From Proteromonas lacertae (lineage: Eukaryota): a stretch of DNA of 64,000 nucleotides. Both the position numbers and the translations under genes were made by a program. Below, piece after piece: positions 2,616 to 63,527 of the stretch (position 1 is its first letter; each line of letters starts with the position of its first letter). The notes below the pieces were generated by a model that saw only the letters and a program-made list of their open reading frames with translations, had not been told where the DNA came from and did not search any database. The stretch covers positions 124,001-188,000 of the forward strand of contig NGBS01000873.1 of assembly GCA_002245135.1 (NCBI GenBank), read 5' to 3'.

Positions 2616-3386
2616 TTAATGTGATTTGAAATACTTTAATTCGGGCATAGGAGGTGATTCTGGTGAATTATTCTCTTTAGAAGATTTATAAGGAGTTTCT
2701 GAAGAATTAAGTATTGTTGAAGATAATGACGATTCCTCTGATATTGAATCATCTTTCTTTTCATCTGCAATTTCTTGACGTTTAGCTACTGGTGGTGTTG
2801 ATAAATTAGAAGATATTGAACTTCTCTTTGAAGCTATTACTGTAGTATCATCATTTTCTACAAATGTCATATGTAGTCCAGATGGATATTGCGGTGATGA
2901 TTCATTTACTTTTGTAGGTGTGTTTTCAATTGATGTATTAGATATTGATTGACTATTATCTATACTTGGAGTTAATATATTTTGCGTGTGTAGAATAGGA
3001 GGTGTTAGTGTTTTGTTTTGAGTTTGATTTATTAAACTACTCTGATCTATTGTATTATCTACAATTTCATTCTTTTTCTTTTCAGGTGTTTCGGTATTTT
3101 GCATTTTGTCATCCTTCTCTGGAGAATTTTTATACCCAACAGGTTCATTAGGTTTTTGTTGCTCTTTTTCTTGAAATGAGTTAAAAAAAGACTTCCATGG
3201 TATTAATGATTCATTTAGCCTTAACATATTAGCAGTATATTCTTTGATTTTCTTTTGTATAGCTACACTAACCTCATTTGCTTTAGCAAAATTTTCATCA
3301 ATATTTTGTAATGTCAATATAATCTTTTGTTCTAAATCTTCTCTATTCTCTATTAATTATAGCAAATTACAATCTATACCAGTCAT
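2616..3386 (-). CDS. ASK1: DASH/Dam1 complex subunit Ask1-like
   Basis: Removing a 30-nt GT-AG intron (3350-3379) gives MTENREDLEQKIILTLQNIDENFAKANEVSVAIQKKIKEY...LIPWKSFF. This matches the Ask1 pattern LEQ.I.LTLQ.ID.NF..A...W..FF and is followed by a disordered S/T/P-rich tail. Confidence 0.75.
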
Positions 3387-3876: not shown

Positions 3877-5285
3877 TTATACTAACACAGCTTTCTGATC
3901 CTCTTTATAATAATCCAGAAAACTTAAACCCAATTGTTTGCCTAACTCTCTGTAATCATCACATGTCAATGGATGATTTCTACCATGCATATCAGTAGAA
4001 GCATAAAATGAGACTTCTAATGTATAACAATGAACATTATTTAATTCACTGGCTAATGTCCTTCTTCCACTCCCTTCTTTATAAGGATCATTATCAAATC
4101 TAAATAAAAATAATATAATATATAAATAAATATATAAATACTTAGTTTGTCTATAAGAAAACACTAATGAATTAAAAGCTAATCTTTTGGGGAAAGCTTC
4201 TTCTTTACATTGGTCAGATAACTTTTCCATTGAATTACAATACATAAATCCATTCTTCGCAGTTGTATGAGCATGTAAATCAATATAAAAATCTAAATAT
4301 ACACGAGGATCATTATGTAAATCTAACAACAGTTTTTTTGTATTAAAAATAGAAGGATGAAAATATTTACTTGGCGATTGCCAACATCTATTTAAATCAT
4401 ATCCCAAGACGTTGGATCTATAATTACCTAATGATACACCATCTACATTTAACATTGGTACAATGTAGAATATAAAATACTTTCTAATTAATCTAGCATG
4501 ATATTCATTTGATAATAAAAAGTTGATTAAACCTTCACATATAAAACTACTTGGACTTTCACCTGGATGTACTCTTGATGTAATGACTATTGTTCTCTTT
4601 TTGAAACCATTCACTTCAGTTGGACCTGGATCTGTTATTAACAATAAATCAACATTTCTATTCATTAAATATTATAATAATTGAATATATTACATTCATA
4701 CTTATTTAAAATAGTTTTACACAGTATTTGATGGTGAAAATATGGATATTTCTTTGATTCGATACTTAATATAAATTTCTGGAGATATGTATATGTATAT
4801 GGAAAACAGTAGGCGAAATAATATTGATCTGTTTCATTATCAAATTCAAAGAATATTGCTAAAACATAATGATTCTTTAAATATGGATTTTCATACCATG
4901 CACACTGTTTTGAATCTAATCTTTGCCTATTTAATATATATAATTGTATTTATAATACCACTCTGGTCTTGATGTTGAATATACGACTGGAGACATTCCT
5001 TCTCTATACAAACTCTTGTTTTTAGTTGATCCATGTATATAAAATATCACTTTCTGACGCATTTGGGTGTTTGTCACTCTGAAATAATACCATATTCTTT
5101 GTCTAAATAATTAATGAATATTTTAAATACCTATTATTACAAGTGTCAGAACGAATGTTTATATCATATTCATATTCTGAAACTCTCACTATATTACCAA
5201 TGTTTCCTGACTCAAATTTACAATCAAATATCAGCGCTGGTGTATCAAATGTTAATGGGATAGTTCTTACTTTGCCTGTTGTCAT
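3877..5285 (-). CDS. AGBL4: Cytosolic carboxypeptidase (M14, CCP6/AGBL4-like tubulin deglutamylase)
   Basis: Motifs FDCKFESGNI, WYYFRV, KSLYREGMSPVV.STSRPEW, RVHPGESPSS, PMLNVDGV..GNYR, DLNRCW, DLHAH and YTLEVSF; several short introns. Confidence 0.85.
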
Positions 5286-23427: not shown

Positions 23428-25630
23428 AAATCACATTTTAATTTTTGGGTTATTCAAAATTTTGATAAAAATCGAATTTCGTTATTTTTGTTATATATTT
23501 ACATAAAGATGATAATAAAAGTAAATAAAAGCATAAGAGAAGAGGGGTATTTTTTATATTTATTTTTATGATAGATTATGTCGAAAATTGGTCGAAAGTG
23601 GTTTTGGTGATATAGAAGTGAAAATTGGAGATAGCCGAATAATGTCAATCAAGTCAATTTTAGTGAATGGAAATGAAACTGTAAAGAAACTGTTGTTAGA
23701 TCGTGAGTTTGTTGGAGTTTTAGAGTTATATGAAGAAATCGAAGAAATTGGCTATTATGAGATGGAGAAATACTACAGTGGTGGTGAACTGATAATCTGT
23801 AAAGAGAATGTGATGTGAAGTGTTGATGTTTTGTTTATGTTATTGTGAAAAAGAGATAATAAATGATTGTTATGAATTTGTGAAAGAATAATATAGATGA
23901 TGAAGTATTAATGAAATTAATTCATATCTGTAATGTATTTGGTGGATGTCTGAGAGAGATAGAAGACTTGAAAAATATGGAAATAGAAAAGCGAGGATAT
24001 AAATATTTATATAAGAATGAATATTTGTTGAGATTAGAAATGAATAATTTGAGTAGAGATATTAAATATGAGAGATGTGATAATAGTGAATGAATTATGG
24101 TTATTAAATCGTTTATTAGAATGGTATAAATTCCAAAAGAATAAGAAAGATAATAAAGAGATAGAAGATGATTTCAAACATTTGATAGAAGAAGATATCG
24201 ATTGTGAAAAGATAAAAGAGAAAAAGATAGAAAAAGAGAATAAAGAAATGTTAAAAGAAATGAATATAAAATTAAAGAAAAATGAATGTAAAAATCATAT
24301 AGAAATATATTGTATAAAAGATGAGAGAATTCAAAATGTGATAATCAACAAATACAATGAAGATAATAAAGAAGAAGACTTTAATGAAGAAGAAAGAAGA
24401 ATATTGGATAAGATGAAAGAAGAAGAATTGAATGATGAAATACTGTGTATATTAGAAATGAATAATATAAAAATGATGGAAATAGTATTGATGATAATGA
24501 AATATAAAAATATGAAAATGGAAAGTATAAATACTAAAAATATATTTAAATAGAATATATCTCAAATATAGAAAAGAGAAATCTATTGGATAGATTATGT
24601 ATAGAATATAATGAGAGTAAAAGAAATCGAACAATGAAATGTTTATATTTGTTTGTTGATGATAAGAAGAATATTTCAATAATAGGAAGAAGTATGTGGA
24701 AAAGAGATTCTTTTCAGAATATTGAATGAAGATTATTATTTAATCTCCAAATCCATAGAATTAGTAATAGAATATATAAAAGAGAATAAATTGAGTTTTG
24801 AAGAAGATGAAGAAATGATTGTAATAATGAAAGATAAAGAATTATTGAAAGAATTAAAAACAAAAGAAATCACATCATTTTCATATCCTCAATCAGAATA
24901 TTCATTTATATTAGATGAAGAAATGTCAATAATTCCATTATTTGATGGAAATCGATGTGAATTTTCAATAAATCCTTCATTGCCAGATGGAATAATGATA
25001 AATAAAGAAAATGGAATAATTAATGGAAAAGTGAATAAAGAAATCGAAAAGAGAGAATATGAAATAAGTTGTAAGAATATTGTAAATGAAAAGAAATTCA
25101 AAATATCATTAGAGTTTGTTGATGTAAAATTTACAGAATTAAACAAAAGTAGAGGAATATCAATATCAAATAATGGAAAAACAATAACAAATGCAAATTA
25201 TGACTATTATCATTGTTATTTGAATTTGATAATGGAAAATGGAGTTTATCATATCAAATATCAATTTCATCAAAATAGAAATTATTATGATGGTATGATG
25301 TTAGGATTATCAACTAATAATACATATTCTGGTAATCATATTTATTATCAATCAACAACATGTAATTATGCTGCTTGGAATGGTAAAAGTCAAGATATAA
25401 CTGATTATTGTCATATTGGAAGAGTTGTTAATTCAAAATCCAAATTTCAATAATCATGGAGATGGTTCAATTTATGAAGTGATTGTTGATATGAATAAAA
25501 GAGAATTTTGGATTAAGTCATAATAATTCATCTCCTGTTTTACTTGTTAAAGATTTACCTTCTCCATTTATATCCATATGCTGAATTATATGGTGAAAAC
25601 ACTTCAGTTGAATTATTAGTCAGTTTCTCA
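23428..25630 (+). repeat. Dispersed ~2.2 kb duplication, near-identical to 61310-63520
   Basis: Both copies start at aaatcacattttaatttttgggttattcaaaattttgataaaaatc and share long identical stretches up to the stop-codon region. Confidence 0.95.
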
Positions 25631-25640
25631 TCATGATTAA
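23509..25640 (+). CDS. BTB/BACK-like + putative Ig (He_PIG-like) + SPRY/B30.2-like protein, copy 1
   Basis: ATG 23509, 28-nt intron 23547-23574, 29-nt intron ~24525-24553. FGDIEVKIG…KSIL (BTB-like), INPSLPDGIMINKENGIING (Ig-like), ISISNNGKTI…GVYH…MLG…VDMNKREFWI…LPSPLYPYAEL (SPRY-like). Several frameshifts, which could be errors or decay. Confidence 0.65.
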
Positions 25641-38140: not shown

Positions 38141-40110
38141 ATGAATAAGAGAGTTACTTGGTATTTTATTGTTTATTATCTAAACTAATATTATAGGAAC
38201 CCTATCGAAAGATCATATTTTCCAGGAGATGACAGAATTCATTTTCAAAATCCACTGTAAACTTTATTTTAAATATTGATATGAATAGATCGGATATGGA
38301 GGAACCACATTATTTTAACAGAGGTTATACACAAAACAATGAAGGCATTAAAACGGGATTGTTTGTGTTTGGGGATAAAACAGAAGTAGATATAACAGAT
38401 TATCCTCTGTTTATAACCAAAAAGCTAAGAGAAGAACAATTAGAAGAAAGAGCAAAACAAATTTCAAAAATGTCGTATACAATAGTGGAATGTAATAGAG
38501 GAGCAGTAATATCTACAAACTTAAGAGATTCAAATAACATATTTGAAGGAGCTTTAATAGAAAACAACATAAATAATGAAGTAATTTGTGCAGAAGAGAA
38601 TGCTTTAATTCAATTGGTAGAAAGACATAATAATTTAATACAAATAGAATTGATAGTAATATATGTCGATAGTGACGAATTATACTATCCATGTGGTAAA
38701 TGTTTACAAAGAATTAGTGACTTTGTGAATAGAAACAATGATGATAAAGATTGTTATATTCTCTTAATGTGTAATAAAAATATAGAAAAATTGTATAAAT
38801 TATCAACTTTATATCCATTTAATAACACAAATACAAGTAACAGAAGAATAAATATCATAAATGAAAATAATAAAACATTAAATTATAACAATAATATACC
38901 ATTTGATGAAAATAACATAATGAGTTGGAAGAATAGTGATATATGTAATTGGTTAATTGAAATAGGATATAAAAAATATGTAAGACAATTTGAATATAGT
39001 AATATCACTGGAAAAACATTATTTATTTTACAAGAAAACGATTTAGAGAATATAGGAATCCCAGTAAATGTAATACCTAATTTAATGAGATGTATAAATA
39101 GCCTATTAAATCAAGATCTATTAAAACATGGTTTAGATGTTGATAGAATAAATGATTATATCTGTTTATTAGATGGTCAAAGAGTGAGAAGTATTTGTAG
39201 ATTAAAACGATATTTTGATAAATATGATTTAGACAGAGATGGTTGTGTAAATAGAAGTGAATTAATGTTATTATTGGAAGATTTACATGTTTATAATAAT
39301 GAAATGTTAAGAGGTTGGTTGGAAAGAAGAAGTGAAGAAGATTGTTTGCTGATATTTGAGGATTTTGTTGATGCTTATATGACTTTTATACAAAATAATA
39401 AAGAACCACATTCTCCATTATCTAGTAGAAGTCATAAAAGAATATTAAGAAAAAGAAAAGAGGATGAATATAATACAATAATGCAAAGGATGAAATGGAG
39501 AGAGTATAACTTTATATATATACATATATATTCAAATAGTTATGTAAGATATTTAGATTCAAATAGTGTTCATCGATTACAGTATTGGTTTAATAAATAC
39601 GATGATAATGGAGATGGTAGATTATCATTGAAAGAATGTATGGAATTGTTTGAAGATCAAGGATATAAATTAGATGAAGAAAGATTGAAGAATTTCTTAA
39701 TGGGAAGAGGTCATGTGACTATGGATGGATATTATGATGATAATTTGTTAAATTTTTATGATATTGCTGAAGTGGCATTAGTATTTTGCAAGAAAAGAGA
39801 AGGTGATGATAATAAAGAAAAAGAAAAGGAGAAAGAAAAAGAAAAACAGAATAATGTAAGCGAAAATAATGAATTTAATAATACTAATAAATCGTTGAGT
39901 GAATCGAAAATGGGTGATGATTTTAATGTCAGTAAACCTATTGGAAAATACCAAATAAATTATCAAATTATACTTAATCTCTATTACAATTGTTGTTTAG
40001 AGTGTTCAAAATTAATCATAATCAACCTATTTGAAATGCATACTATCATTAGTTATTTAGTTACTCCATCATTGAATTTAGTAGCACTTTATCAAAATGA
40101 AAGTGACTAA
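38141..40110 (+). CDS. Cytidine-deaminase-like + SAM + EF-hand protein
   Basis: GALIEN…ICAEENA…PCGKCLQRISDF (CDA-type zinc motif); SWKNSDICNWLIEIGYKKY…ITGKTLFILQENDLENIGI (SAM); DLDRDGCVNRSEL and DDNGDGRLSLKE (EF-hands). The C-terminal ~60 codons are doubtful. Confidence 0.75.
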
Positions 40111-47552: not shown

Positions 47553-48706
47553 ATGTCTACCGATAGAGAAACGTATGGAATTCGTTTTATTTAATTATTT
47601 AATAGCAAAATGAACAATATGAAAAATAGTAGCCGCAATGAGTCAAAAGAATGTATAAAAGTCTATTTATATCCATTTTAATTAGCATATACATTTCGTG
47701 GAGTACGAGACAAAGGGAATAGAAGTTCTGTATTTATATTCTGTTTAATTGTTTGTAATAGCAAAGACTTAGCAGAAGATTTGATATAGACCCAAGCTCA
47801 AGTAAACCCTCATGGCTTTGCGATGAGTTAGCAACTGCAGATGGTATATTTTATAACTTTTTTAAAACTCATTTATAAAATATAGATTGTCAGTTGATTG
47901 ATTTAGGTAAAAAAGCATTTCTTAAGCATAAAACTATTAAGAAAATGCGTAGATCCAATTCGACAAACACACTATACCTAAAAGATGAAATTGATAAATT
48001 TGATAATCGTCAGCTGTTACATTGTATAGCTGTTGTATTACACCAACTAATGGAAAATGCATCCAATCCAAAATTATCTCAAAATACCGAATATGAGTTA
48101 TTCAATCAAATGTATCCAGATGCCCCTCCATCTTATTCAACTAAAGTTCCAGTAACTTCAATAGATGATATATGGAATTTTTTACTCAAATTATCAGAAA
48201 AAGCACAATTAGAAAGTGAATGCATCGTAATGTCAATTATATATATCGAAAAGTTCTTAGAATGTACAAAAGGATTAATGCCATTGAGATGGTATAATTG
48301 GGCAGCTCTAGTAGTGGTTAGTTTTATGTTAGCTTCAAAAGTGTGGGATGACTTCAGTATGTGGAATTGCGACTTTAGTGCCATTTGTCCATTTTTAGAT
48401 TTGAAACGACTAAATAAATTAGAGTCAATGTTTTTGAATTCTGTTCATTTTGATGTTAGAATTACTAGTAGTACTTATGCTAAATATTATTTCAAATTAC
48501 AAACAATGCTTGATTTACCTGATGATTATATCACCGTATATAACTCTCCAGTTGCTGTTGATAAAAGAATTGAAGAAATGAAGAATAGTTCGATAATGAA
48601 TAGAGGTAAAAGTAGTGATATGGATTTAATAGGAAAAAGAAAAGTTAGTATTCCCAAAGTATCATTAGAAGAATATATATCAGCAAGAAAAAAATCAACT
48701 CACTAA
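47553..48706 (+). CDS. CCNY: Cyclin Y-like cyclin
   Basis: RRSNSTNT, AQLESECIVMSIIYIEK, LASKVWDDFSMWNCDF and YAKYYFKL; several tiny 5' exons, start uncertain. Confidence 0.85.
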
Positions 48707-48868: not shown

Positions 48869-49253
48869 ATGGTATTTTTGTCATTTTTATCTCAATAGTC
48901 GAACAAAAGAAACATTTTGGATTTAAAAAAGAATATGGATAAATTGGTTAGAATAAAGATGCAAGGAGGAAGAGAAGGTATAACATTTTTATTTATTTTA
49001 GTTGTTGGATTGCTCAAAGGGTATGATGACTTAGCAAATATTGTATTACATGATACCATTGAATATTTAAGAGGTAAATATCAATTTTTATGTTATATCT
49101 ATAGATCCTTCAGATCCTTACAACATAACCGATGAAACAAGAAAATTGGGTGTTGTTGTATTGAGAGGACCATCATTAATGATGGTAACACCAATGGAAG
49201 GTTATGAAGAAATTGATAATCCTTTCTTAACTAACAATGAAGAAAATGAGTAG
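48869..49253 (+). CDS. LSM7: Sm-like protein LSm7
   Basis: Three short introns; ILDLKKNMDKLVRIKMQGGREVVGLLKGYDDLANIVL…YLRDPSDPY…TRKLGVVVLRG…GYEEIDNPF. Confidence 0.92.
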
Positions 49254-49345: not shown

Positions 49346-52300
49346 ATGTCGTTTCTGTTTTTCTCACTTATCTGTTTGTTACCGATTTATGCTAATGTGT
49401 GTAACAACCTAAAGTTTATCATGGATACAAGTGACACTGATATGACTGATTTGATAGAATCTATTTGTGGGATGTATTATGATAGTGTCACTTTAGATAT
49501 AACAGTGTTGTCACCACCTGATATAACCACTTTAGAGGTGGAATTTAAAAAATCTCAAAAAATTGGAAAAAACGTAATTGTGAGTAAATTGAAGTCTTTT
49601 GACAAAGTAGAAGTTGAATCTCTCGCTAAGAAATACAATATAATAGTTTGGGATGCTAATCTTAAGACAGATAACACTTGTCTTACCAATGTTGTTGAAG
49701 GTTTTGGTGGTTGTGTAGCAATTGCATTTGGATTGTCGGTAATTCATTATTCATATTCAAAATCAATTGTTGTATATGATTCTTCTTCACCTATATCAGC
49801 TTGTAGTGAACAGATTTATAATTATTTATTGTATGAAGGTTATCCTGGTCCAGAGCTTATAAAAGCTGAAGATCATACAGCCATAGATGATGTAGTTACT
49901 GCATATAAAGATGAAGCTGATACTATCGTATTGAATTTCTTAACTGGTGGAGTAACAGGAAGTAATTCTGAATACTTGTTCAGTCAAAGAGCTACTCAGA
50001 CAGGTCAATTTAATATTATATCATTTCATAATGTAAAAGGTCAAGAATTACTAGCTTATACCAATCCTAAAGATAGTTTGATATTATCAGAAGCATTATT
50101 ACAAATTGATATAGCTGGAAGAAAGGAATATTTAGATATTGATAAGTTTATAATGTATTAATTATATATATATATATAATTAAATAGGGTTCAATTTATG
50201 TTATTACTAATTGATATAGGCATGAATACTGGAGAAAAAGATTTATCAAAAATACATGCATTAGTGGCAGGTACAAGATATGAATTAAATGGAGAAGAAA
50301 TATTGTTATTACCAAACTTATCTCTTTCTGGAGATGTATATTATAGTAAAGTAGTAGAGGATAGTACTGGAACTATGATTTTAGAATCTATTAGTTTCTT
50401 TCCAAGAGGTTCATCAATACCTTACGTAGATATATATTCGAATCCGTATGAAAAAATATGTGATGTAACAGTCAATACTGAAGGAGAGTTTAGACCTTCT
50501 AGCTACTACTTTATTATATTGACTTATATGTCTGGTTTTTATTTAACATTTGATAGACCAATTAGAAACTGTGTAGAAGCTGCAGTTACATTATTAAACA
50601 ATGAAGTATAATAATCTATTATCATTATAAATGTGAATAGTTATCAATATTGGGTGAAAGAATATATGCAATTCCAATAGATGCAAATGATACACCAAAG
50701 AATATAAGTGATAAGATTATGGACAAATTTGAAAATTTCAATGTTATTGGGATGGTTACAACACAGGAATTTAGTGATTTTGAACAGTTGTTAGATGTTG
50801 CAAATAGTTCAATATTTGATGTAAATCTTTATTACTTGAATATTGTTCCAAATGAAATTTGTACTAGCAGTTATTATTTCAGTGGTTTAAATGTCGCTAA
50901 TATGTGGAGAGAAACAAAATCGTATTTCAATCCAACAAATATTGTTTTGATTGGAAATATAGGAACGTATTTTTACATATTTAATTATATTCTATTCTAT
51001 AGACTATTCAAAAATGCTTTAATATATATTGAAGATGACTGTAATTTAAATGATATTAATATCAGAGGAAGATATACAATGGATAGTCTATCATCTCAAC
51101 ATGCATTAAACGCTTGTAATGAGATAGAATCAGGATGTAAAAACTATGACGACTGTCTTATAGTTGTTATAACAGAAAGACAATATTTACAGATGTTTTA
51201 TGAAGAGTATTATACAAGACATTTCCCATATAAGATTTTGAATTTCAACTTGGATGAAGCAATGATTAATGTTAATAAAACACTTGTATTATATATATAT
51301 AATATTCATTATTTTTATGTTTATATAGTATGAAGGATCTTATGTGATTGGTTATTATTTTGATTCAATGGAAGGTGATAATAGTTATGATGATGAAATA
51401 AGAAATTATTTTAATAGTCCTTCAACTACAGTTAGAAACACTTATATTACTTCAACTGCTGCAATAGGATATACTCAAGTTAGGTTGTTTGCTTTAGCTA
51501 TTGATATAGCTAGAAAAACAGATAAAGATTCAATAAAGAATACAATGCAATATACTACCTATTATGGTCCAGGTGGTTTAATATATGGAAGTTCACAAGG
51601 TTATAATAGTTTTGCTGCACATGCTGGAATAGTATATACATATATTGTTCAATTTTTATTTATTTTAGGTTAAAGATGGAAATATTACAAGGTTACATAC
51701 TGCCTATTATGTTGAAAGAACAAATGCATTTGGTTTGTACAATATATCATGTGATTGGATTAATGAAATTCAATCTGTTAAAGAAAGTAAATATGTTATA
51801 TTTTTGTATGTAAGAAATCACTATACTGAAGAAGATGTTAATGATTATATATTAACAGGTCAATATGCTATTGAATATATTAATAATCAACATGATGGTG
51901 TTGCAGGATATAAACTAAGAGCAATCACTCCATACTTAACATCAGTAGAAGAGATGGTTCAATATGTGAAAAATACTATGAATGATAAAGATGTATTAGT
52001 ATATGTTGGAACATTAGCAGTCGAAGAAAGAGAAGCTATTCATAGCTTATTAGAAGAATCTAATAAACTGTTGTTAAGTATTCATCCAGCAGAAGGAAAT
52101 CAATGTTATCAGAATATTCTACAAATATCTTTTTTTTTTAATGCTGTTTATATTTTATACTTTGTTATCTTTAATGTAATTGTTTTTACTTTGGAAGATT
52201 ACCTCAGCATTATGCATTCTCAGTGTTAGCATATTCATATCAATTCCTTAGAAAATGTCTAATAATATATGATGATTTGCATTATAGTGAACATGTAGCT

Positions 52301-55300
52301 AATTTCACATTAGAATATACAAAGAATATTAGAACATTAGAATGTATTGCAGTAGAAATTAGTCATACCACTAATCTCACTGAATTTGTCAATAATACTA
52401 TCTATGAAGGATATCCTGATGGTGTTATAATATTAACAATTGTCAATCATATAACTGAAGATTTATTATATGAATTAAGAGATGCTGATAAAACTAAATA
52501 TATGATTACTATATTGGATCATATAGAGTATAAGTATTCAAATAGCAAACACAACGAAATATATGAAGGTGTTTATTATGTTACATCTTATACATATAAG
52601 ACATTATATGAGACAAATCAAGTTACAATTAGTATAACAGAATCATTTTATGGAAAACCTGAAGATCTAATGACTGATTCATCAATTACCCTTTACTCTG
52701 CTTTGAGATTATTAGATGCAGCTTACAGTGAAGATGTTAATCAAATGAGATATAATATGTATGAAAAAACAGTCGATACTCCACTAGGTGATGTAGAAAT
52801 GACAAGTGCAAATATGTTGAAGATATATTTCTTTTTGATGAGATTCGAGAATAATAATGAGAATATCATATTAGAATCAGAATATAGTTATGAAGAGAAT
52901 CAATTTTCAAGTACATTAAATGGAAAGCATCTGAAATGTCATTTTGAAGAAGGAGCTAAAGCACCGTCAATACAGGAAGAGGAAGTATATGAAATTGGTG
53001 TATGGTTAGAAGAAGATGAAAGTGTTAGATTTTCATTAGAGGAGTATTATTATTATGTTAATAGTAATGGTGGAAATGCTGGTATAAGATTTGTATATAT
53101 ATTATTTCATTTATTTTTTTACTTTTTTTTTTAATTAGGTATTAACATCGTATTATTGTAATGAAACTGATCAATTAATTGAATTAATCATGAAAGATGG
53201 TGTTGATTATATATTATCATTATGTGATGATGAAGTTCATCATAATTTATCAAATACAATAAATGAAAATAACATCACAGTATTTGCACTACAAGACCAA
53301 TATGAGTTTATGTGTGAGCCAAATATGTATATATATATATTATCATATTATTTATTTTCTTTATATATAGTGTTACAATTGGTTCATCTCCATCTCAAAG
53401 AATTATTCCATTAATCGAGTATTTATTTACTCATCATGAAACATCAGTTTATGTTATTATGCCATCTCATTATGATCCATCAATTGAATTGGATTTACTT
53501 TTATCTACCATTGAAGTGCATGGAGGAGATTTAATTAAAACACTGTTTATTGATGAAGATAATGAAACAATTTATGATGAAAATATCAGAAAAATTGGAG
53601 ATTTTGTTTCAAGTGTTCATCGTTATACACCTGATGGTGGAATTATATTAAACTATTTATATACTCTTACAGAATATGTATATCAAGCAATGTATCAAAT
53701 ATTACAGTTAAATGAAGTTCCACCAGATGAAATGTCTTTACAATTTCCAATTGTCACAATGGAGTATGATAGTTTATCAAAAATAAATATTACATATATG
53801 GATAGTCAATTTGCATTAGCAATAAATCATCTTTCAAAAGATATAAGTGAATTTTTATATGGTTTAAGTGAAAGTACATATGGTAAAGATAATGATTTAA
53901 GTGTTTTAGAAGGAAGAGCATTAATTACAAGTGAAATTATCTATACTGTAATAATTGGATTGCAGAAGAGTGAATATAAAGATTTATTATCATATGTTCA
54001 TAAAACTAATTTCACTACTTCATTTGGTGAAATTCATATTACTGAAGATAATTATTTACCTGCTATTGTTTCATTATATCAATCAGATAGATATAAAAGA
54101 ACAGCAAAAAGAATAGTACTTTCTCAAGCATGGCCAGGTGAAATATATAGAGAATCATTTCAAAACACAACTCTATTTGATGTTTGTAATGTGACAAAAG
54201 CATTAGTTGAGCCAAAAAGAAAAGATGGAACAAACCCTGCAAGAGTAAGTAGAAAATCACTAAATATTGTGTTGTTTGTTCCATTATCTGGATTATTAAA
54301 GATTCCAGGTTATGACATGTTGTTAGGTTATTTGGCTGTAATTGATTATTATAATAAAGAAATGACTGATGATAGTAGATATCTAAATCCAATAGTTATT
54401 GATACAAAATTGAGTTATGAAACTCCATTAGAAGAGATTCCTTTAATGAGAAGCAAATACCATACATTATTAGCATTTGGCATGGATAGAAGTGAAAATA
54501 GAATGAAAGTAATTGAAGCACTTGAAGATAATAATGTTATTTTATTCTATCCAAGAGATTTTGAAGGTTATGAATGTAAAGAGAATATTATATATACTGG
54601 TGTTCCATTCTCTGCTAAATTGCCATATTTGTCATGGATATTAGGCAATTTAGGTACAAAGATCTATATAATCTATACTGATAAGTATGGTAATAGAATA
54701 ATACAACAAATGGTTGAACATGATATGTTTTTAAGAGGCTATTCAATTGCTGGATTTACCAGAGTTCCACAATTGAATTATATGTTGAGTCAAGCTATTA
54801 ATCAAATTAGAGAAACCTTAAAGACTGGTGGAGTTATTATCTCGTATTTAGAAGGATCAGCAGGTTTGGAATTCTTTAAGTTAATGTATGAAAATGGTCT
54901 AACTTCTGATTTATATCATATTGTTGCTGACAATTTGGATTTGAGTAATTTGAATAGCGAATATGCAAAGTATATGGAAAATCATTATATATGGAATACT
55001 TTTTCAAGAGATGGTTATAGTTTAGAACCATTTACTAAACTCTTTAATCAGAAATTTACATTCATTAGTAGTGAATCACAAGGATATGTTCCTTCATCTT
55101 TATCAATTGTAATATTGGCAGAAGCAATGAAAATGGCAAAATTCAATTTTAGTAATGAAGTTCCATATACATTCCATGATGTGTTAGATGCAATTCATTC
55201 TGTTAGTACAAGTGAAATAAAGGTATATTCTGATAATTATATATCGTTTACACTTGTTATGCATAAAGTAGTTAAAGGTAAAGATGGTCGAATATGTTGG

Positions 55301-58300
55301 AGAAGATATTTATACATATAAATCGTATGGTAAACCCAATCCATGGTCTTCTACTTACAATATGAATGGGAAATATATTTGTGATTGGAATACTTCTAAT
55401 CCTGATAGAAATGAAACAATCCAAGTTGAAGCTATTAATATTGCAATAATATTACCATTGACTAGTATTACATTAGGTGATTTTAGTACAAGTATGCTAG
55501 AAACAACCATTGGTACTTTATTAAAGATAAATGATGAAGGAGGTGTTAATGGATTGATTATAGATTATGATGTTTTTGATACTGGTAAAGAAACTCAAGC
55601 TGAACTTGATATGGTTGCTAAGAAGATATTAAATAGTAAGAATATAGTTGCTGCTTTTGGTTGTTTATCTGAAGAATGTAAAGATACAATATCAGGTGTA
55701 ATTAAAACGAATGATATTGCATTATTTTATCCTGGTTTAGCATATGGACAAGAATGTAATAAGTATGTATATTATACCTCAACAGTTACAAATCAATATT
55801 TAGATCCACTTATTACTTATTTAACCACTTATCTAAGTGATAAACAAGTGTTATTAATAGGTGATACAAGTAGAGGATCAGGATATATAACTGAAATTTT
55901 GGACAATCAATTTAAGAATATAATGAATATTGCTGATATAATAATGCTAGAACCAGTAGATGAAGCAATTCAAGCAAAAATAACACCAGTTATAAACTCA
56001 TTACCAAATGGTGCAATTATTATAACTTATGTTCAAATAACTAATTATATTTCGATTGTTAATACATTAGAAAGTACAATTTATTCAAGTGGTTTATTTT
56101 CAATTTATGCGATAGGTATTCATAGAGATGCATTGAAAAGTATTACTACTTCAACATTAGTTGATTTGTATTTCATTTTCAGTTATTTTTCTGAATTTAA
56201 AGAACATGATCCTTATAAAGATAGTTTAGGCACTTATACTGGAAGAACAGATACATATACTACAGGTAACTCATTGTATATTTCTTTATATTTATGGAAA
56301 GCTGGTGTGGAAAGAGCTAATTCATTCAAAACTGATTTGGTTAGACCAAAGTTGTATAATGTAAAAATAGAAGGAGGAGCTGGATTTGTTGAATTATTGC
56401 CAAGTCATTATTTAACCAATCCATTCTTTATTGCTAAAGCATCAGTTAGTACTAATTCATTTTCTTTGGTATATAGTCAAACTATAGTAATTCAACCAAT
56501 GCCATATAATTGGAATATAGAAACTACATATGGTAAAACATGTAACTTCTTAGAAGATAAACCAGAAAAAACATCTATTCCATTAACAGTTATTGTAGCA
56601 GTATCTGTGACAGGATATAATAATGAAATGGAATCTGGTATTTATAACATTATTAATATGTGTATTACTGATTTAAATCACGATAATAATGGCTTATTAA
56701 ATACTCAATTGTATTTAGAAAAAGCAGATATTGGTTCAGATGATAATGTATGTATTGACACTCTGCGAAGTTTATTCAGTAGTACATCAGCTAGTATTAT
56801 TTTTACTACAGCCTCTGAATATTGTTTGAATGTGTTGATGAATGATGCATCAAAAGCTGATATTCCAATATTCCATGTTGGTTATACACCAGGTGAATCA
56901 TGTCATTATGAAGTAGTATATGGTAATAAGGATCCAAATGTTATTGAAAGAATTATTGATGTAAATTTCCAAGCATTTGAAGAATCAACTTATTATTACT
57001 CAATAGTTGGTAGTAGTGATCCTGCCAGTTCAAATTGTATAGAATATGCAAAAAAGTATATAGATTATAAAGGAGCATATGTGTATGTAACAAGTAGTTT
57101 AAATCCTGATACAGTAACAACTCAAAATGTGGATTCTGTTGTTAAAAATATTCAAGGTCAAGCTCCAAATGGTTGTTATATTCTTTTCTTTGGAACTCCA
57201 AAATTACATAAAATGTTAGATGACTCATTAAAGAAGCATTCAATGAGTTATGATAAATATCCAATACTCTCTTATTCTACAGGTGAGATAATGAATAATT
57301 ATGAAGATATTGCACCATTTATATCTGCTCAATCATTCTTTCCTGAAAGTCATCTATCTAATACAACATTATATGATCATATAAGAGAATATACAACAGT
57401 TCCATTAACAGAATATATTGTTAATTCATATGTGTTATTTCAAATGTGGGTAAGAGTAGTTGAACAAGAACATGAATTGAAATGGAGTAAAATTCGTACA
57501 AAAATGTATGATGTTCCTTTTAATGCACCTGAAGGAGCTATTCAGATCCATTCAAACAATTATCTTGATCATCATCTTGAATTAGGAAGATATAATCCAC
57601 AAACAAAGAAATTCGATATATATTATTCATCATCCAGTTCAATTGCTCCAACACCATGGAAAAGATTCATTAATGAAGGAAGATTTATTTGTGATTTTGC
57701 TACTTCTACTGCTGGTGCTAGAAAAAAACAATCTACAATTACAATTGGTTTATTAGCTTCGTATTCTGGTGATAATTCTATCATGGAAAGATCAATTGCT
57801 GAAGGTGTTTTTTATGCTGTTAATTTGATAAATAGACAAGGTGGATTGTTAGGAAATCAATTGATTGTAGAAATAAGAGATCCAGAATCAAAGACAGAGT
57901 TATATATAGAATATGCAAAAGAATTATCACAATTAGAAGAAGTAAAAGCTGTTTTTGGTGGAGGAAGATATTCTGTACAACAATTAGTTGCTCCTATTTT
58001 AGATACATACAAATTCCCATATTTCTATCCAGGCATATCAGGTGGTGAAATATGTTATGAACATTTATTCTCAACACAATCAACTGTAAGTCAAATATCA
58101 ACTGTTTTGTTGAAATATGTTTATCCAGAATTTGAGAATATGATTATTGTCACACAAAATACATCATTTGCTCAATTATTAGAAGAATCGGTTCATTCAA
58201 TGGCTGAAATTGTACATACAATTGTATTTGGCCCTTATTTATATCCAACTCTCGATGAATTATATTCATTAGAACCAAGTTTTATTGAAAATGCAGCAAT

Positions 58301-59502
58301 TATACTATTAGCAAATGCTGAAGATTATTCAAGTATAATCAATACATTGTGTGATCATAACATTGTTGCTTCAAAGGATAATATATATGCAATTACTGCG
58401 GATGGAAATAGATTAGCTGCTGTAAGACCTGAATGTATTAGAGGAATTAGAATTATTACTACTTTTCTAAAAGAAATAGGTGAAGATAGACTAGAAACAG
58501 GATATATGGAATCTGCAGCATCATTTGTAACTGATATAAAAGATAATTATGGTAATTCGGTGGTTATAACATCAGCAATGGAAGCTGCATATTCTGCAGT
58601 GCAAGTTTATGCAGATGCTGTTAAAAGTTCATATACAGATGATCCAGAATTAGTTACTCAATTGTTATGGGGTTATAGTATGAATACACCAACTGGTACA
58701 ATGAATATAAATTATAATGGGTATGCAAGTAGAGTATTCTTTTTGTGTGAAACTATAACATCTACTGATTTTAAAGTTATTCATTATTCTTCAGCAGCCT
58801 GAATATCCTGATGCTTATAATCAATATATTCAAAGAGAATTATGGTGTTGTTTGTGATTGGACAGATGGAGGTGATAAGTATAAGTTAAAATCGTTAAAA
58901 GTTGCATTTGTTCATGAGTATAATGTTTCTGCATCTGCAATGGAAGTAGAAATAATGATTCAAGAGTTTAACAAGATTAGAGATATCAATAACAACAAAT
59001 TAAATGGATATTTCTTAGTTCCATTAATGTATTTTTGTTCAACTGATGAAGACTATAAATTGATGTTGGATGAATTAGAAAATGAAGAAGATTTATCAGT
59101 CGTTATTGGGTGTAGAAGTGCAGGTTGTCGTGATAAAGTATCTGAGAGAGTAAATGCTATGAATGTGTTATTTTTATATACAGGAATAAGTGTAGGACAA
59201 AAATGTTCTAAGAATCTAGCAACATTTGGTACAACAGCTACACAGAAATCTATTCCAATCATTCAATATTTAACTGAACAAAATTTCGATTCTTTTATAT
59301 ACATTTCAACAGATGAAATTCTTTATGATACTTATTATGATATACTCATTTATGATGTTCAGAAATATTCAAATATAACTAAAATGCCGAGAGTTACAAT
59401 TCCTTCAAAAAAAGTAACAAGTGAAGATTATAAGAATGCAATAGCATCAATATTAAGATATTCTACTGAAAATCGTATAGCAGGTATACTATATTATTTA
59501 TA

Positions 59503-59535
<33 letters not shown>

Positions 59536-61240
59536 TAAATAGCATTCTACTATATGAATGGAGAAATAGGAAAAGCTTTTCTTGATGAAATGATAAAAGA
59601 AGGTATAGACTTTAGACAAGTAGTATTAATCTTAATGAGATACTCTCAAGCTGATTTTGAAGGTGATTATTTAAAGAATCTCTCAGGTGCATTAAGACCT
59701 GCTTCATTTGCTCAAGATCTTGAATCTCCGTTATCAAGATCATTTATCAGTGATATGAGAGATGGGATGGGATATGATAGTATTATTACAGAAGAAATGG
59801 AATATGTAGATTCTGCAATAAGTATATGGGAAGTAAGTATGGAAAAGAGTGCAACTGATAGTGAAAAAGATAATCCACCAATTGAATATGTTAGATTGAA
59901 TATAATTGATAGAGAAATATCAGCACCATCAGGAACAGTGAGTTTAGATAGTAGTTTGTATATTAGAAGAAGTATTTATGTATTAGAAGTGAATGATAAT
60001 GGAGAATTTGTTCAAGTATATCCCCAAACTGGTTCAACTATTATGTTTGATCCAGAACCATATCCAAAGACTGGAACTCCACCAGAATGTAATTTTGGTT
60101 TAGAAGTGAAGTATTTTGAATATAGTAGTTCAATGGTTGGTATAAGTTATGGATTAATGGCAATATCATGTATTTTGTCAATATGGACATTATTGTTTGT
60201 ATTTGCTTCAAGAAATAAGATAATTATTAGAGCATTTGGAAGAGCTTATAATTTTGCATTTGCTATACAATTGTTGATGCTTGCTTTATCGGTTATACCA
60301 ATGGCAATTCCTCCAACAGAAACGAATGGAATATGTAAAGCAAGAGTAGTTATATTGGCAATATGCGTAAAAGGAATAATTGGATTAATGTTATGTAAAA
60401 CCTACAAAATATATAGGCGTGTAAGAAGATTAAGACAGAAAATAATGAGAACAAAAATATCATTTGTTAGAGTGTTGTTATTCTGGATAGCTTTTGAATT
60501 TGTTGAAGCAATTGTCTTGATATTATGGTTTTCAATTGATCCTAACGAATATCAAGCAGTATATAGTCAGAAGTATAGTGAGTATTTCTACAGCATGTAT
60601 ATAAGAGAATGTACAGTTTCAACTCCTTTTATGTATATATATATTTATATACTATTATTTATTATTGAATAGTGTTATTCAATTAATAACAGATGGTTTA
60701 CCTACTCTCTTTTTAATTTACATTAGTTATAAGATAAAAAATGCAGCTAATGAACATAATGAAAGTATAGGATTATTTATTTCTTCAGCTGCAATTGATA
60801 TCTTTTTTTTTATTAATGATTTATTGATAGTATATTCTTAATTAATATTTTTACCTCTACTTGGAATTATAATGGTTGCTTTAGATTTCAATATTAATAA
60901 TGAACCTGATAGTGTATTGCTTTTAAGAGCAATGGGAATTGAAATAACTCAGATCATATTGATATTACTTCAATATGGATTAAAGTTAGTGAATTTGTAT
61001 ATCAATGAAGATGCAAATCGTAATATATCTTCTGGAAGTCAATATACTAACATGAGTGCTGGAAGTATGAGTAAGTTGTCAAGAACTCAATCAATGTCAC
61101 AATCTTCAGCATTTAAAACAACTCATATGAAATCAATGTTTACTCAATCAGCATTAACTAATACTAACTTAACATTAAAAACACAGAATAATCCAGGTGG
61201 AACTACATTAACAAAGAATAATGCAGCTGTAAAGAATTAA
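49346..61240 (+). CDS. Giant class-C-like GPCR: signal peptide + ~9 tandem periplasmic-binding (Venus flytrap, UrtA/AmiC-like) domains + 7TM
   Basis: Signal MSFLFFSLICLLPIYA; repeated modules with IN..GG..G, FYP…GxEC and TP.G.V motifs, each ending C[DN][WF]; hydrophobic helices at ~60130-61000 including CKAR, KTYKIYR and HNES. ORF pieces are joined by introns and a few apparent indels. Confidence 0.85.
52125..52189 (+). other. U12-type AT-AC intron (65 nt)
   Basis: 5' ATATCTTTTT, branch TCTTTAAT, 3' TTTTTAC; removal joins QCYQNILQ to FGRLPQHYAFSVLAYSY in frame with ORF 52223. Confidence 0.88.
60798..60854 (+). other. U12-type AT-AC intron (57 nt)
   Basis: 5' ATATCTTTTT, branch TTCTTAAT, 3' TTTTTAC; removal gives the TM helix GLFISSAAIALLGIIMVAL in frame with ORF 60872. 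Confidence 0.88.
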
Positions 61241-61390: not shown

Positions 61391-63527
61391 ATGATAAAAA
61401 AAGTGAATAAACGCATAAGAGAAGAGGGGTATATTTTATATTTATTTTTATGATAGATTATGTCGAAAATTGGTTGAAAATGGTTTTGGTGATATAGGAG
61501 TGAAGATTGGAGATAGCCGAATAATGTCAATCAAATCAATTTTAGTGAATGGAAATGAAACTGTAAAGAAACTGCTGTTAGATCGTGAGTTTGTTGGAGT
61601 TTTGGAGTTATATGAAGAAATCGAAGAAATTGGCTATTATGAGATGGAGAAATACTACAGTGGTGGTGAACTGATAATGTGTAAAGAGAATGCGTGTGAA
61701 GTGTTGATGTTTTGTTTATGTTATTGTGAAAAAGAGATAATAAATGATTGTTATGAATTTGTGAAGAACAATATAGATGAAGATGTGTTAATGAAATTAA
61801 TTCACATATGTAATGTATTTGGTGGATGTTTGAGAGAGATAGAAGAATTGAAAAATATGGAAATAGAAAAGCGAGGATATAAATATTTATATAAAAATGA
61901 ATATTTGTTGAGATTAGAAATGAATAATTTGATAGAGATATTAAATATGAGAGATGTGATAATAGTGAATGAGTTATGGTTATTAAATCGGTTATTGGAA
62001 TGGTATAAATTCCAAAAGAATAAGAAATATGATAATAAAGAGATAGAAGATGATTTTAAACAATTGATAGAAGAAGATATCGATGTAGAAAAGATAAAAG
62101 AGAAAGAGATAGAAAAAGAGAATAAAGAAATGTTGAAAGAAATGAAAATAGAATTAAAGAAAAATGAATGTAAAAATCATATAGAAATATATTTAATAAA
62201 AGATGAGAGAATTCAAAATGTAATAATGAATAATTACAATGAAGATAATAAAGAAGAAGACTTTAATGAAGAAGAAAGAAGAATATTGGATAAGATGAAA
62301 GAAGAAGAATTGAATGATGAAATACTGTGTATATTAGAAATGGATAATATAAAAATGAGTGAAATAGTATTGATGATAATGAAATATAAAAATATGAAAA
62401 AGGAAAGTATAAATACTAAAAATATATTTAAATAGAATATATCTCAAATATAGAAAAGAGAAATCTATTGGAAAGATTATGTATAGAATATAATGAGAAT
62501 AAAAGAAATCGAACAATGAAATGTTTATATTTGTTTGTTGATGATAAGAAGAATATTTCAATAATAGAAGAAGTATGTGGAAAAGAGATTCTTTATAGAA
62601 TATTGAATGAAGATTATTATTTAAGCTCCAAATTCATAGAATTAGTAATAGAATATATAAAAGAGAATAAATTGAGTTTAGAAGAAGAAGAAGAAATGAT
62701 TGTAATAATGAAAGATAAAGAATTATTGGCAGAATTAAAAACAAAAGAAATCACATCATTTTCATATCCTCAATCAGAATATTCATTTATATTAGATGAA
62801 GAAATGTCAATAATTCCTTCATTTGATGGAAATCGATGTGAATTTTCAATCAATCCTTCATTGCCAGATGGAATAATGATAAATAAAGAAAATGGAATAA
62901 TTAATGGAAAAGTGAATAAAGAAATAAAAAGAGAGAATATGAAATAAGTTGTAAGAATATTGTAAATGAAAAGAAAATCAAAATATCATTAGAGTTTGAA
63001 GAAGGAAAATTCACAGAATTAAACAAAAGTAATGGAATATCAATATCAAATAATGCAAAAATAATAACAAAAACAAATGGTCTTTATAATCATTGTTATT
63101 TGAATTTGATAATGGAAAATGGAGTTTATCATATCAAATATCAATTTCATCAAAATAGGAAATTATTATGATGGTAATGATGTTAGGATTATCAACTGAA
63201 TAATACATATTCTGGTAATTATATTGCATGAATCAACCAACAACATGTAATTATGTATGCTCATTATGAGATAAAAGTCAAGTTATATTACTAGAATATT
63301 GTCATATTGGAAGAGTTGTTAATGAAAATCCAAATTTCAATAATCATGGAGATGGTTCAATTTATGAAGTGATTGTTGATATGAATAAAAGAGAATTTTG
63401 GATAAGTCATAATAATTCATCTCCTGTTTTACTTGTTAAAGATTTACCTTCTCCATTATATCCATATGCTGAATTATATGGTGAAAACACTTCAGTTGAA
63501 TTATTATCAATTTCTCATCAAATGTGA
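61391..63527 (+). CDS. BTB/BACK-like + putative Ig + SPRY-like protein, copy 2
   Basis: Paralog of 23509-25640 with the same intron positions (61429-61456; ~62407-62435); frameshifts in the 3' third. Confidence 0.65.

What the first reader, a model, noticed from the sequence alone, without database searches (positions are those of the whole stretch)
49346..61240. Giant class-C-type GPCR with about nine tandem UrtA/AmiC-like Venus flytrap modules
Seen: one ~11.9 kb gene (~3,800 aa after splicing) with a signal peptide and about nine ~370-400 aa modules (approx. 49400-50470, 50500-51760, 51790-52945, 52985-54190, 54260-55390, 55430-56550, 56580-57700, 57740-58860, 58895-60095), then a 7TM region and an S/T-rich tail. 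Modules share I.I….SG, IN..GG..G, FYP…GxEC..N..YTG (e.g. LFYPRDFEGYECKENIIYTG) and TP/AP.G.V motifs. Known: that FYP..YEG.E..NI.YTG motif typifies bacterial UrtA/AmiC (Peripla_BP_5) urea/amide-binding proteins, and canonical class C GPCRs (mGluR, GABA-B, CaSR) carry a single flytrap. Inference: a multi-ligand or avidity chemoreceptor, possibly built from a bacterially derived binding domain. I am not aware of this architecture being described.
Basis: partly seen in the sequence, partly recalled or inferred. Interest (0 to 1): 0.92.

Follow-up and report, generated by a model that had tools for sequence, protein, structure and literature searches.

The report
Nine-flytrap class C receptor family
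A single-celled gut-type protist carries a gene predicted to make one giant cell-surface receptor with nine ligand-trap domains in a row, where animal glutamate, GABA and taste receptors have one; the traps likely descend from a bacterial urea-binding protein but here have lost its urea-gripping residues, and relatives with two to nine traps occur in other protists and in chytrid fungi.

Summary
Confirmed. 49346-61240 (+) reads as one gene: signal peptide, nine ~386-aa modules, 7tm_3 domain, S/T-rich tail, 3,801 aa after 11 short introns (two AT-AC). Three one-base frame breaks are likely assembly errors: 20 of 20 long orthologs read through. Modules 6-8 fold confidently (pLDDT 90) as type I binding proteins closest to UrtA; module 1 is only weakly supported. 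The modules are 10-20% identical and keep 0-3 of UrtA's 8 urea residues, so the avidity reading fails for this protein; only module 5 shows a somewhat conserved, acidic pocket. It belongs to a family: 42 AT-rich proteins whose modules cluster by position, an unnamed protein with nine modules plus 7tm_3 in one frame (5 of 8 full modules with all urea residues), and 2-3-module receptors in Capsaspora and chytrids. The host is likely Proteromonas-like (sister to Blastocystis); a published table gives P. lacertae 116 class C domains and 7 G-alpha, Blastocystis none. No transcript, ligand, dimer or G-protein test was possible. Ten literature searches found no description of the architecture. New variant of class C GPCR.

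The parts
49346..61240 (+). Whole gene, 12 exons, 3,801 aa when read with X at three breaks
   Evidence: orthologs and paralogs collinear
49346..49396 (+). Predicted signal peptide
   Evidence: hydropathy peak; similar N-terminus in P0171
49397..50467 (+). Module 1 (weakly supported flytrap; intron 50155-50187)
   Evidence: (E 9e-4); first exon 65-67% identical in P0171/P0172
50468..51758 (+). Module 2 (introns 50606-50640, 50967-51002, 51286-51328, 51632-51668)
   Evidence: 1e-34
51759..52945 (+). Module 3
   Evidence: 2e-51
52125..52189 (+). AT-AC (U12-type-like) intron, 65 nt, 5' ATATCTTT
   Evidence: removal restores continuity with P0029 and P0035
52946..54193 (+). Module 4 (introns 53093-53138, 53327-53370)
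   Evidence: 2e-32
54194..55388 (+). Module 5: the most UrtA-like pocket, acidic (LFYPRDFEG); likely main ligand site
55275..55295 (+). One-base frame break, absent in orthologs
55389..56549 (+). Module 6
   Evidence: phmmer to UrtA 8hic E 5e-21; model Z 45.9, rmsd 2.4 over 380 residues to 8hic
56550..57698 (+). Module 7
   Evidence: 2e-80; model Z 36.9, rmsd 2.7 over 355 to 3i09
57699..58861 (+). Module 8, with two one-base frame breaks near 58794 and 58831
   Evidence: model Z 42.5, rmsd 2.6 over 343 to 8tg1; breaks absent in orthologs
58862..60096 (+). Module 9, membrane-proximal (intron 59484-59542); likely relay module
   Evidence: (9e-73)
60133..60982 (+). 7tm_3 domain, seven helices (introns 60633-60672 and 60798-60854); short stalk, no nine-cysteine domain
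60798..60854 (+). Second AT-AC intron, 57 nt
   Evidence: spliced product aligns without gap to P0028/P0029; P0004 runs into the same splice-site letters at this place
60998..61240 (+). Cytoplasmic tail, 31% Ser+Thr, and stop codon

Best explanation
This is predicted to be one intact class C-type GPCR gene, likely of a Proteromonas-like gut flagellate, whose outer part is a chain of nine flytrap modules that likely descend from a UrtA-type urea-binding domain and likely work as an ordered stalk in which module 5 binds a small, probably cationic nitrogen compound (not urea) while the modules nearer the membrane would relay the closure to the 7TM domain and a G protein. Shown: architecture, fold of modules 6-8 (model), loss of urea residues, position-specific conservation of modules, open frames in orthologs (about 0.9 together). 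Inferred: single transcript and assembly-error origin of the breaks (0.9), host lineage (0.85), G-protein coupling (0.75), relay role of proximal modules (0.55), module 5 as main site (0.45), cationic ligand (0.3).
For: One gene: all gaps are 33-65 nt with splice signals, one signal peptide, no strong internal hydrophobic helix before TM1. Single open frames in relatives span the joins: P0001/P0002 modules 4-9 plus TM1-4 at 87/82%, P0035 signal-like start plus nine modules, P0029 seven modules plus full 7TM, P0026 nine modules plus 7tm_3. Breaks: 20 of 21 cluster members read through both break regions, the 21st is a 358-aa fragment; a MiaB-like housekeeping gene in the window also has a one-base shift. 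Fold: pLDDT 90.4, pTM 0.84 for modules 6-8 together, which suggests a defined packing between modules; top matches UrtA, then AmiC. Two cysteines per module are nearly invariant. Position is inherited: 156 modules of 38 proteins need 13 changes of position label against at least 86 (mean 95) in 500 shuffles; 141 of 156 nearest neighbours share the position. Pockets: only the fifth module from the membrane exceeds background (0.50 vs 0.33, p 0.03 in 8 close relatives); across 22 such modules Y141 19, D/E at Q144 18, E146 15, D/E at N246 11. The proximal module is degenerate in P0026, P0059, P0064 and P0152; distal modules with 6-8 of 8 urea residues occur in the first three. Host: GMP synthase of the window is sister to two Blastocystis (97/95); GC 26.0% vs 27.0% for P. 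lacertae and 21.5-23.1% for tortoise Blastocystis (PMC12129017); its Table S5 gives P. lacertae 116 GPCR family 3, 182 PBP-like I, 7 G-alpha, 75 RGS and no urea transporter, and eight Blastocystis genomes 0 GPCR family 3 and 0 G-alpha.
Against: No transcript or read evidence. Module 1 is barely detectable. The module 5 signal is weak: p 0.03 uncorrected for five positions tested, p 0.07 over all 22, nine columns taken from UrtA; modules 1-4 had too few relatives to test (module 4: 5 rows, not above background). A different ligand could use other residues, so low conservation of UrtA columns does not prove empty pockets. The TM7 proline of the class C PK motif is missing here (YGLK). The pTM comes from a prediction whose coordinates I could not inspect. 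Host assignment rests on one gene tree with no Proteromonas row. Relay across four modules is mechanically demanding (PMC4352136 notes that linear arrangements may dissipate distal signals).
Confidence: 0.55

Rival explanations
1. Multi-ligand integrator: each module has its own ligand and the receptor sums several gut chemicals.
For: Modules are fixed by position and individually conserved; pocket residues are nearly unchanged between the window and P0001 and partly in P0003; BvgS-family kinases with 1-5 flytraps are proposed to integrate signals (PMC4352136 passages).
Against: UrtA pocket columns of modules 6-9 are not above background in 7-10 close relatives (p 0.40-0.87) nor in the whole set; the proximal module is degenerate even where distal ones are intact.
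Confidence: 0.25
2. Contact or mechanical sensor: the array is a long glycosylated rod that binds a surface or polymer (mucus, bacteria, another cell), and small-molecule binding is lost altogether.
For: 30 NxS/T sites (0.79 per 100 aa); confident multi-module model; a Dictyostelium class C receptor recognises LPS (PMC5969738, search listing only); EhVFT acts in motility and phagocytosis (PMC12965686 passages).
Against: Module 5 keeps a UrtA-like pocket in several paralog groups; relatives with intact urea sites show the family began as small-molecule sensors.
Confidence: 0.12
3. Pseudogene or several separate genes joined by my splicing.
For: Three frame breaks in the assembly; exons of modules 1-4 are linked to the rest only by predicted introns; no RNA seen.
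Against: 20 of 20 long cluster members are open across the breaks; a housekeeping gene in the window shows the same kind of one-base shift; paralog P0035 has nine modules in one frame and P0026 nine modules plus 7tm_3; no intergenic-sized gap or second signal peptide.
Confidence: 0.06
4. Avidity sensor for urea or short amides.
For: Closest structures are UrtA and AmiC. It fits the relative P0026, where 5 of 8 full modules keep all 8 residues.
Against: In this protein no module keeps more than 3 of 8 urea residues or 1 of 4 hydrogen-bonding ones; single mutations at those four sites reduce or abolish binding in UrtA (PMC10392092 passages); modules only 10-20% identical.
Confidence: 0.02

Closest known systems
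Animal class C GPCRs, GABA-B type (also mGluR, CaSR, T1R)
   Same: 7tm_3 domain with TM3/ECL2 cysteines, TM3 lysine and TM6 acidic residue; type I flytrap outside; like GABA-B, no nine-cysteine domain
   Different: Nine flytraps per chain instead of one; flytraps closest to UrtA/AmiC, GABA-B far lower in Foldseek (rank 39); 7TM only 19 bits to mGlu7 and 14 to GABA-B2 against 36 to P0026; TM7 proline absent
Bacterial UrtA (TIGR03407; PDB 8hic, 7s6e, 7s6f, 8tg1) and AmiC (1pea)
   Same: Fold (Z 46, rmsd 2.4 A), the EG.EC cysteine and the C-terminal P..WN...CDW end that forms each module boundary
   Different: Below the family cut-off (236 bits for three modules vs 493); urea residues lost; fused in tandem to a eukaryotic 7TM
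Capsaspora CAOG_05347 and chytrid proteins KAJ3101170.1, KAJ3207669.1
   Same: Tandem Peripla_BP_5 modules plus 7tm_3, degenerate proximal module
   Different: 2-3 modules; database entries named hypothetical; PMC3251606 reports N-termini up to 1667 aa and ANF domains, with no tandem array named in the passages seen
BvgS/EvgS sensor kinases
   Same: Tandem flytraps (1-5) with a distinct, closed membrane-proximal domain (PMC4352136)
   Different: Bacterial histidine kinase output; a different binding-protein class (type II, recalled); at most five modules
Non-canonical class C receptors of gut fungi and diatoms; Entamoeba EhVFT
   Same: Bacterial-type binding domains recruited as sensors in microbial eukaryotes
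   Different: Type II sugar-binding or pectin-lyase domains (PMC5168858), one PBP domain shown (PMC3727952), or GPI-anchored without 7TM (PMC12965686)

Membership tests
Class C (glutamate, 7tm_3) GPCR | 7tm_3 domain with seven helices | tested here: met
   64.6 bits vs cut-off 33.5 on TM1-4 exon; seven hydrophobic segments; aligns end to end with relatives scoring above the cut-off
Class C (glutamate, 7tm_3) GPCR | TM3 and ECL2 cysteines, TM3 basic residues, TM6 acidic residue | tested here: met
   NGICK, CKTYKI (Lys for the usual Arg), RECT, HNES; features as listed in PMC3727952
Class C (glutamate, 7tm_3) GPCR | TM7 PK motif (conserved, not universal) | tested here: not met
   YGLK here and in close relatives; PK present in P0026, P0040, P0064
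Class C (glutamate, 7tm_3) GPCR | Extracellular type I flytrap after a signal peptide | tested here: met
   module 1 inconclusive
Canonical mGluR/CaSR/T1R/GABA-B subfamilies | One flytrap per chain | tested here: not met
   nine modules
mGluR/CaSR/T1R subfamilies | Nine-cysteine domain between flytrap and TM1 | tested here: not met
   no NCD3G hit; about 12 residues from the last module's cysteine to TM1
Class C (glutamate, 7tm_3) GPCR | Obligate dimer | not tested
Class C (glutamate, 7tm_3) GPCR | Activates a heterotrimeric G protein | not testable with these tools
   indirect only: 7 G-alpha and 75 RGS entries for P. lacertae in PMC12129017 Table S5
UrtA urea-binding proteins (TIGR03407) | Score above curated cut-off | tested here: not met
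   236.5 and 80.4 bits vs 492.75
UrtA urea-binding proteins (TIGR03407) | W120 S122 Y141 Q144 E146 Y190 N246 S274 | tested here: not met
   modules 1-9 keep 1,1,1,0,3,1,1,2,2 of 8; 45 of 92 prokaryote-type domains keep all 8
UrtA urea-binding proteins (TIGR03407) | Type I periplasmic-binding fold | tested here: met
   modules 6-8, Z 37-46; modules 1-5 and 9 not folded
U12-type AT-AC introns | ATATC(C/T)TT 5' site and AC 3' site; removal restores the protein | tested here: met
   splicing itself not observed

The most novel reading that the evidence does not exclude
An unrecognised, old subfamily of class C GPCRs uses tandem arrays of 2-9 UrtA-derived flytraps with a degenerate membrane-proximal relay module. 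Some members (P0026, P0059) are the first urea-sensing GPCRs, P0026 with five or six intact sites per chain; in Proteromonas-like gut flagellates the array froze at nine position-specific modules and expanded into a large chemoreceptor repertoire that Blastocystis lost together with G-alpha and flagella.
Probability: 0.55. Interest if true: 0.87.

Novelty: new variant of a known kind. Interest (0 to 1): 0.74.

Why it matters
Class C activation is understood for one flytrap per subunit. A natural receptor with nine, fixed in order across many paralogs, asks how a distal closure reaches the membrane and gives a system to test it. The family links a specific bacterial ligand-binding lineage (UrtA) to class C receptors, which bears on how often flytrap-7TM fusions arose. 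The intact-site relatives are directly testable candidates for a eukaryotic urea receptor. It also gives structure to an unremarked entry in a published table: 116 class C domains in P. lacertae against none in Blastocystis, a concrete piece of the signalling loss in the commonest human gut protist.

Tried and rejected
No whole genome is held, so paralogs and G proteins of this organism could not be counted. No sequencing run was listed: no evidence either way on expression. Single-sequence fold failed (pLDDT 35) and was not used. Self-BLAST printed nothing; repeated per module. ESM Atlas did not complete. The wide VIA search was busy; the second-look mode ran. Earlier findings: none by sequence, words or place. 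A 25-nt GT-AG intron could formally explain the break at 55280 but is GC-rich unlike the 11 others and orthologs are open there; rejected. Blastocystis proper as host was considered and lowered: tree position and zero class C domains in eight genomes. Recent horizontal transfer was considered: modules lie 3.6-4.3 changes per column from the nearest prokaryote-type row and prokaryote-type rows form one side of a branch (93-94 SH-aLRT), but long branches and composition bias make the deep tree unreliable, and no AU test was run. Monophyly of the 7TM domains against animal receptors was not tested (no outgroup sequences held). Literature searches found no paper on multi-flytrap GPCRs; one search returned only irrelevant listings (30 of 53 seen).
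Full report
1. Observation. The window is 26.0% GC with short AT-rich introns. From ATG 49346 to TAA 61240, nine GT-AG and two AT-AC introns of 33-65 nt join the ORF pieces in frame. Three one-base frame breaks remain (about 55280, 58794, 58831). Read with X at the breaks the product is 3,801 aa: a hydrophobic N-terminus, nine repeats each ending in C-[DNH]-[WFV] at 374-399 aa spacing, seven hydrophobic helices and a tail of 31% S+T. Pfam on 14 ORF pieces gives Peripla_BP_5 above cut-off in four (modules 5-9), below cut-off in three (modules 2-3), and 7tm_3 at 64.6 bits. A family profile finds nine domains; module 1 is weak (9e-4) and profile-profile tests of its first exon are inconclusive though in register.

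2. One gene, and the breaks. The longer-protein search returned four Logan proteins of 2,367-2,470 aa, 52-87% identical to the query exon, each an open frame from module 4 into the 7TM domain. Of their 21 cluster members 20 read through both break regions; the other is a short fragment. A MiaB-like gene in the same window carries a one-base shift inside a conserved motif, so the contig likely has stray insertions. The 5' exons are tied on by prediction, but paralog P0035 has a signal-like start and nine modules in one frame, P0029 has seven modules and a complete 7TM, and P0026 has nine Peripla_BP_5 stretches and 7tm_3 in 3,745 aa. Removal of both AT-AC introns gives ungapped agreement with relatives that lack them. 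No run was listed, so splicing is unobserved.

3. What the modules are. phmmer against PDB gives six hits, all UrtA-type or AmiC; module 6 matches cyanobacterial UrtA end to end, including the C-terminal P..WN...CDW that forms the module boundary. AlphaFold2 with a 41-row alignment models modules 6-8 at pLDDT 90.4, pTM 0.84; Foldseek ranks UrtA first and GABA-B at 39; VIA gives Z 45.9 (rmsd 2.4, 380 aligned), 36.9 (2.7, 355) and 42.5 (2.6, 343) for the three modules. Two cysteines per module are almost invariant, a likely disulfide. The nine modules are only 10-20% identical to each other. Against the eight residues that are strictly conserved in UrtA (PMC10392092, passages) they keep 1,1,1,0,3,1,1,2,2, and at most one of the four hydrogen-bonding residues; 45 of 92 prokaryote-type domains keep all eight ('prokaryote-type' is inferred from architecture, only one cluster was named). 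The window's ORFs fall below the TIGR03407 cut-off.

4. The family. The representative search gave 1,263 hits, 36 at E 1e-30 or better; the best 150 were examined. All 22 long proteins scanned carry 4-9 Peripla_BP_5 stretches and 10 of 22 reach 7tm_3 (9 above cut-off); the others stop earlier, mostly inside the last module. Of 33 further proteins, 7 have 7tm_3; named ones are Capsaspora CAOG_05347 (three modules) and the chytrids Phlyctochytrium and Dinochytrium (two). Among 42 AT-rich proteins with three or more modules (P0002 and P0004 left out as near-copies), 38 could be numbered from the membrane and four were dropped as unclear; their 156 full modules need 13 changes of position label on the tree against a minimum of 86 in 500 shuffles, and modules at the same position in different proteins are more alike (21.5%) than modules within one protein (15.7%). 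The order of the array is therefore old and kept. In P0026 five of eight full modules keep all eight urea residues and the two proximal ones keep 3 and 2; P0059 and P0064 show the same gradient. In the AT-rich set only the fifth module from the membrane has pocket columns above background (0.50 vs 0.33, p 0.03 uncorrected, 8 rows; p 0.07 over 22 rows), with acids replacing UrtA's Q144 and often N246. A quick IQ-TREE run on 53 modules puts the prokaryote-type rows on one side, the intact eukaryotic modules beside them, and Capsaspora's proximal module with those of the AT-rich set (88), but with long-branch warnings.

5. Host. The window's GMP synthase has Blastocystis ST1 and a tortoise-type Blastocystis as best informative named hits (66%) and branches as sister to both (97/95; 28 rows), the place expected for Proteromonas, for which no row was available. 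PMC12129017 (passages) gives P. lacertae 27.0% GC; its Table S5 (rows seen) lists 116 GPCR family 3, 182 PBP-like I, 7 G-alpha, 75 RGS and no urea transporter for P. lacertae, and 0 GPCR family 3 and 0 G-alpha for eight Blastocystis genomes. The main text has no occurrence of 'G protein', 'receptor' or 'periplasmic'. AT-AC introns are known in this lineage (PMC10639083 and PMC5608401, passages).

6. Mechanism. Best reading (0.55): a class C-type chemoreceptor in which the array is an ordered stalk; module 5 closes on a small, probably cationic nitrogen compound; modules 6-9 relay to the 7TM through a short GABA-B-like stalk; a heterotrimeric G protein then likely steers motility. The division into sensing and proximal relay modules parallels BvgS (PMC4352136, passages). 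Rivals: multi-ligand integrator (0.25), contact sensor (0.12), pseudogene or split genes (0.06), urea avidity (0.02). Ligand, dimer and coupling are untested.

7. Novelty. Ten searches and passages of surveys of non-animal class C receptors (PMC3251606, PMC3971589, PMC3727952, PMC5168858, PMC12716839, PMC12842992) show varied N-terminal domains but no tandem flytrap GPCR. Not seen: figures, de Mendoza supplementary figure S3, eLife supplementary file 12 (one held file, no match), the P. lacertae genome paper, and subscription journals; the 2-3-module Capsaspora and chytrid proteins may be drawn there. Verdict: real; new variant of class C GPCR and a family apparently undescribed; interest 0.74.

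Noticed in passing
P0026 (unnamed Logan protein, 3,745 aa): Nine UrtA modules plus 7tm_3 in one frame, from a GC-richer eukaryote; 5 of 8 full modules keep all urea residues and the cut first module looks intact too. Best candidate for a urea-sensing GPCR.
   Followed up: partly
P0069 and its 46-member cluster: UrtA-like modules fused to a glutaminase-family domain; its last module is degenerate like those of the receptors. Unexplained.
   Followed up: no
window 38233-40110 (+): Cytidine deaminase + SAM + EF-hand domains in one ORF, an unusual fusion.
   Followed up: partly
window 23519-25633 and 61401-63520 (+): Two copies of a 2.1-kb gene, 94.7% identical with 23 gaps; one has a weak He_PIG hit; both look frame-broken.
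   Followed up: partly
window about 16490 (-): MiaB-like radical SAM/TRAM gene with a one-base frame shift in a T run, likely an assembly error.
   Followed up: yes
window 52125-52189 and 60798-60854: Two of 11 introns in one gene are AT-AC, suggesting many minor introns in this genome.
   Followed up: partly
P0058, P0060, P0061, P0070, P0076, P0078, P0085, P0143: Prokaryote-type proteins fuse UrtA-like domains to histidine kinases, Ser/Thr kinases, GGDEF-EAL or HEAT repeats: the domain is already a signalling input there.
   Followed up: no
window 47879-48706 and 48950-49253 (+): Upstream neighbours: a cyclin and a small Sm-like gene (LSM7-like, recalled) ending 92 bases before the receptor's ATG.
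   Followed up: no
window 2616-3356 and 3877-4671 (-): DASH Ask1-like protein and an M14 cytosolic carboxypeptidase.
   Followed up: no
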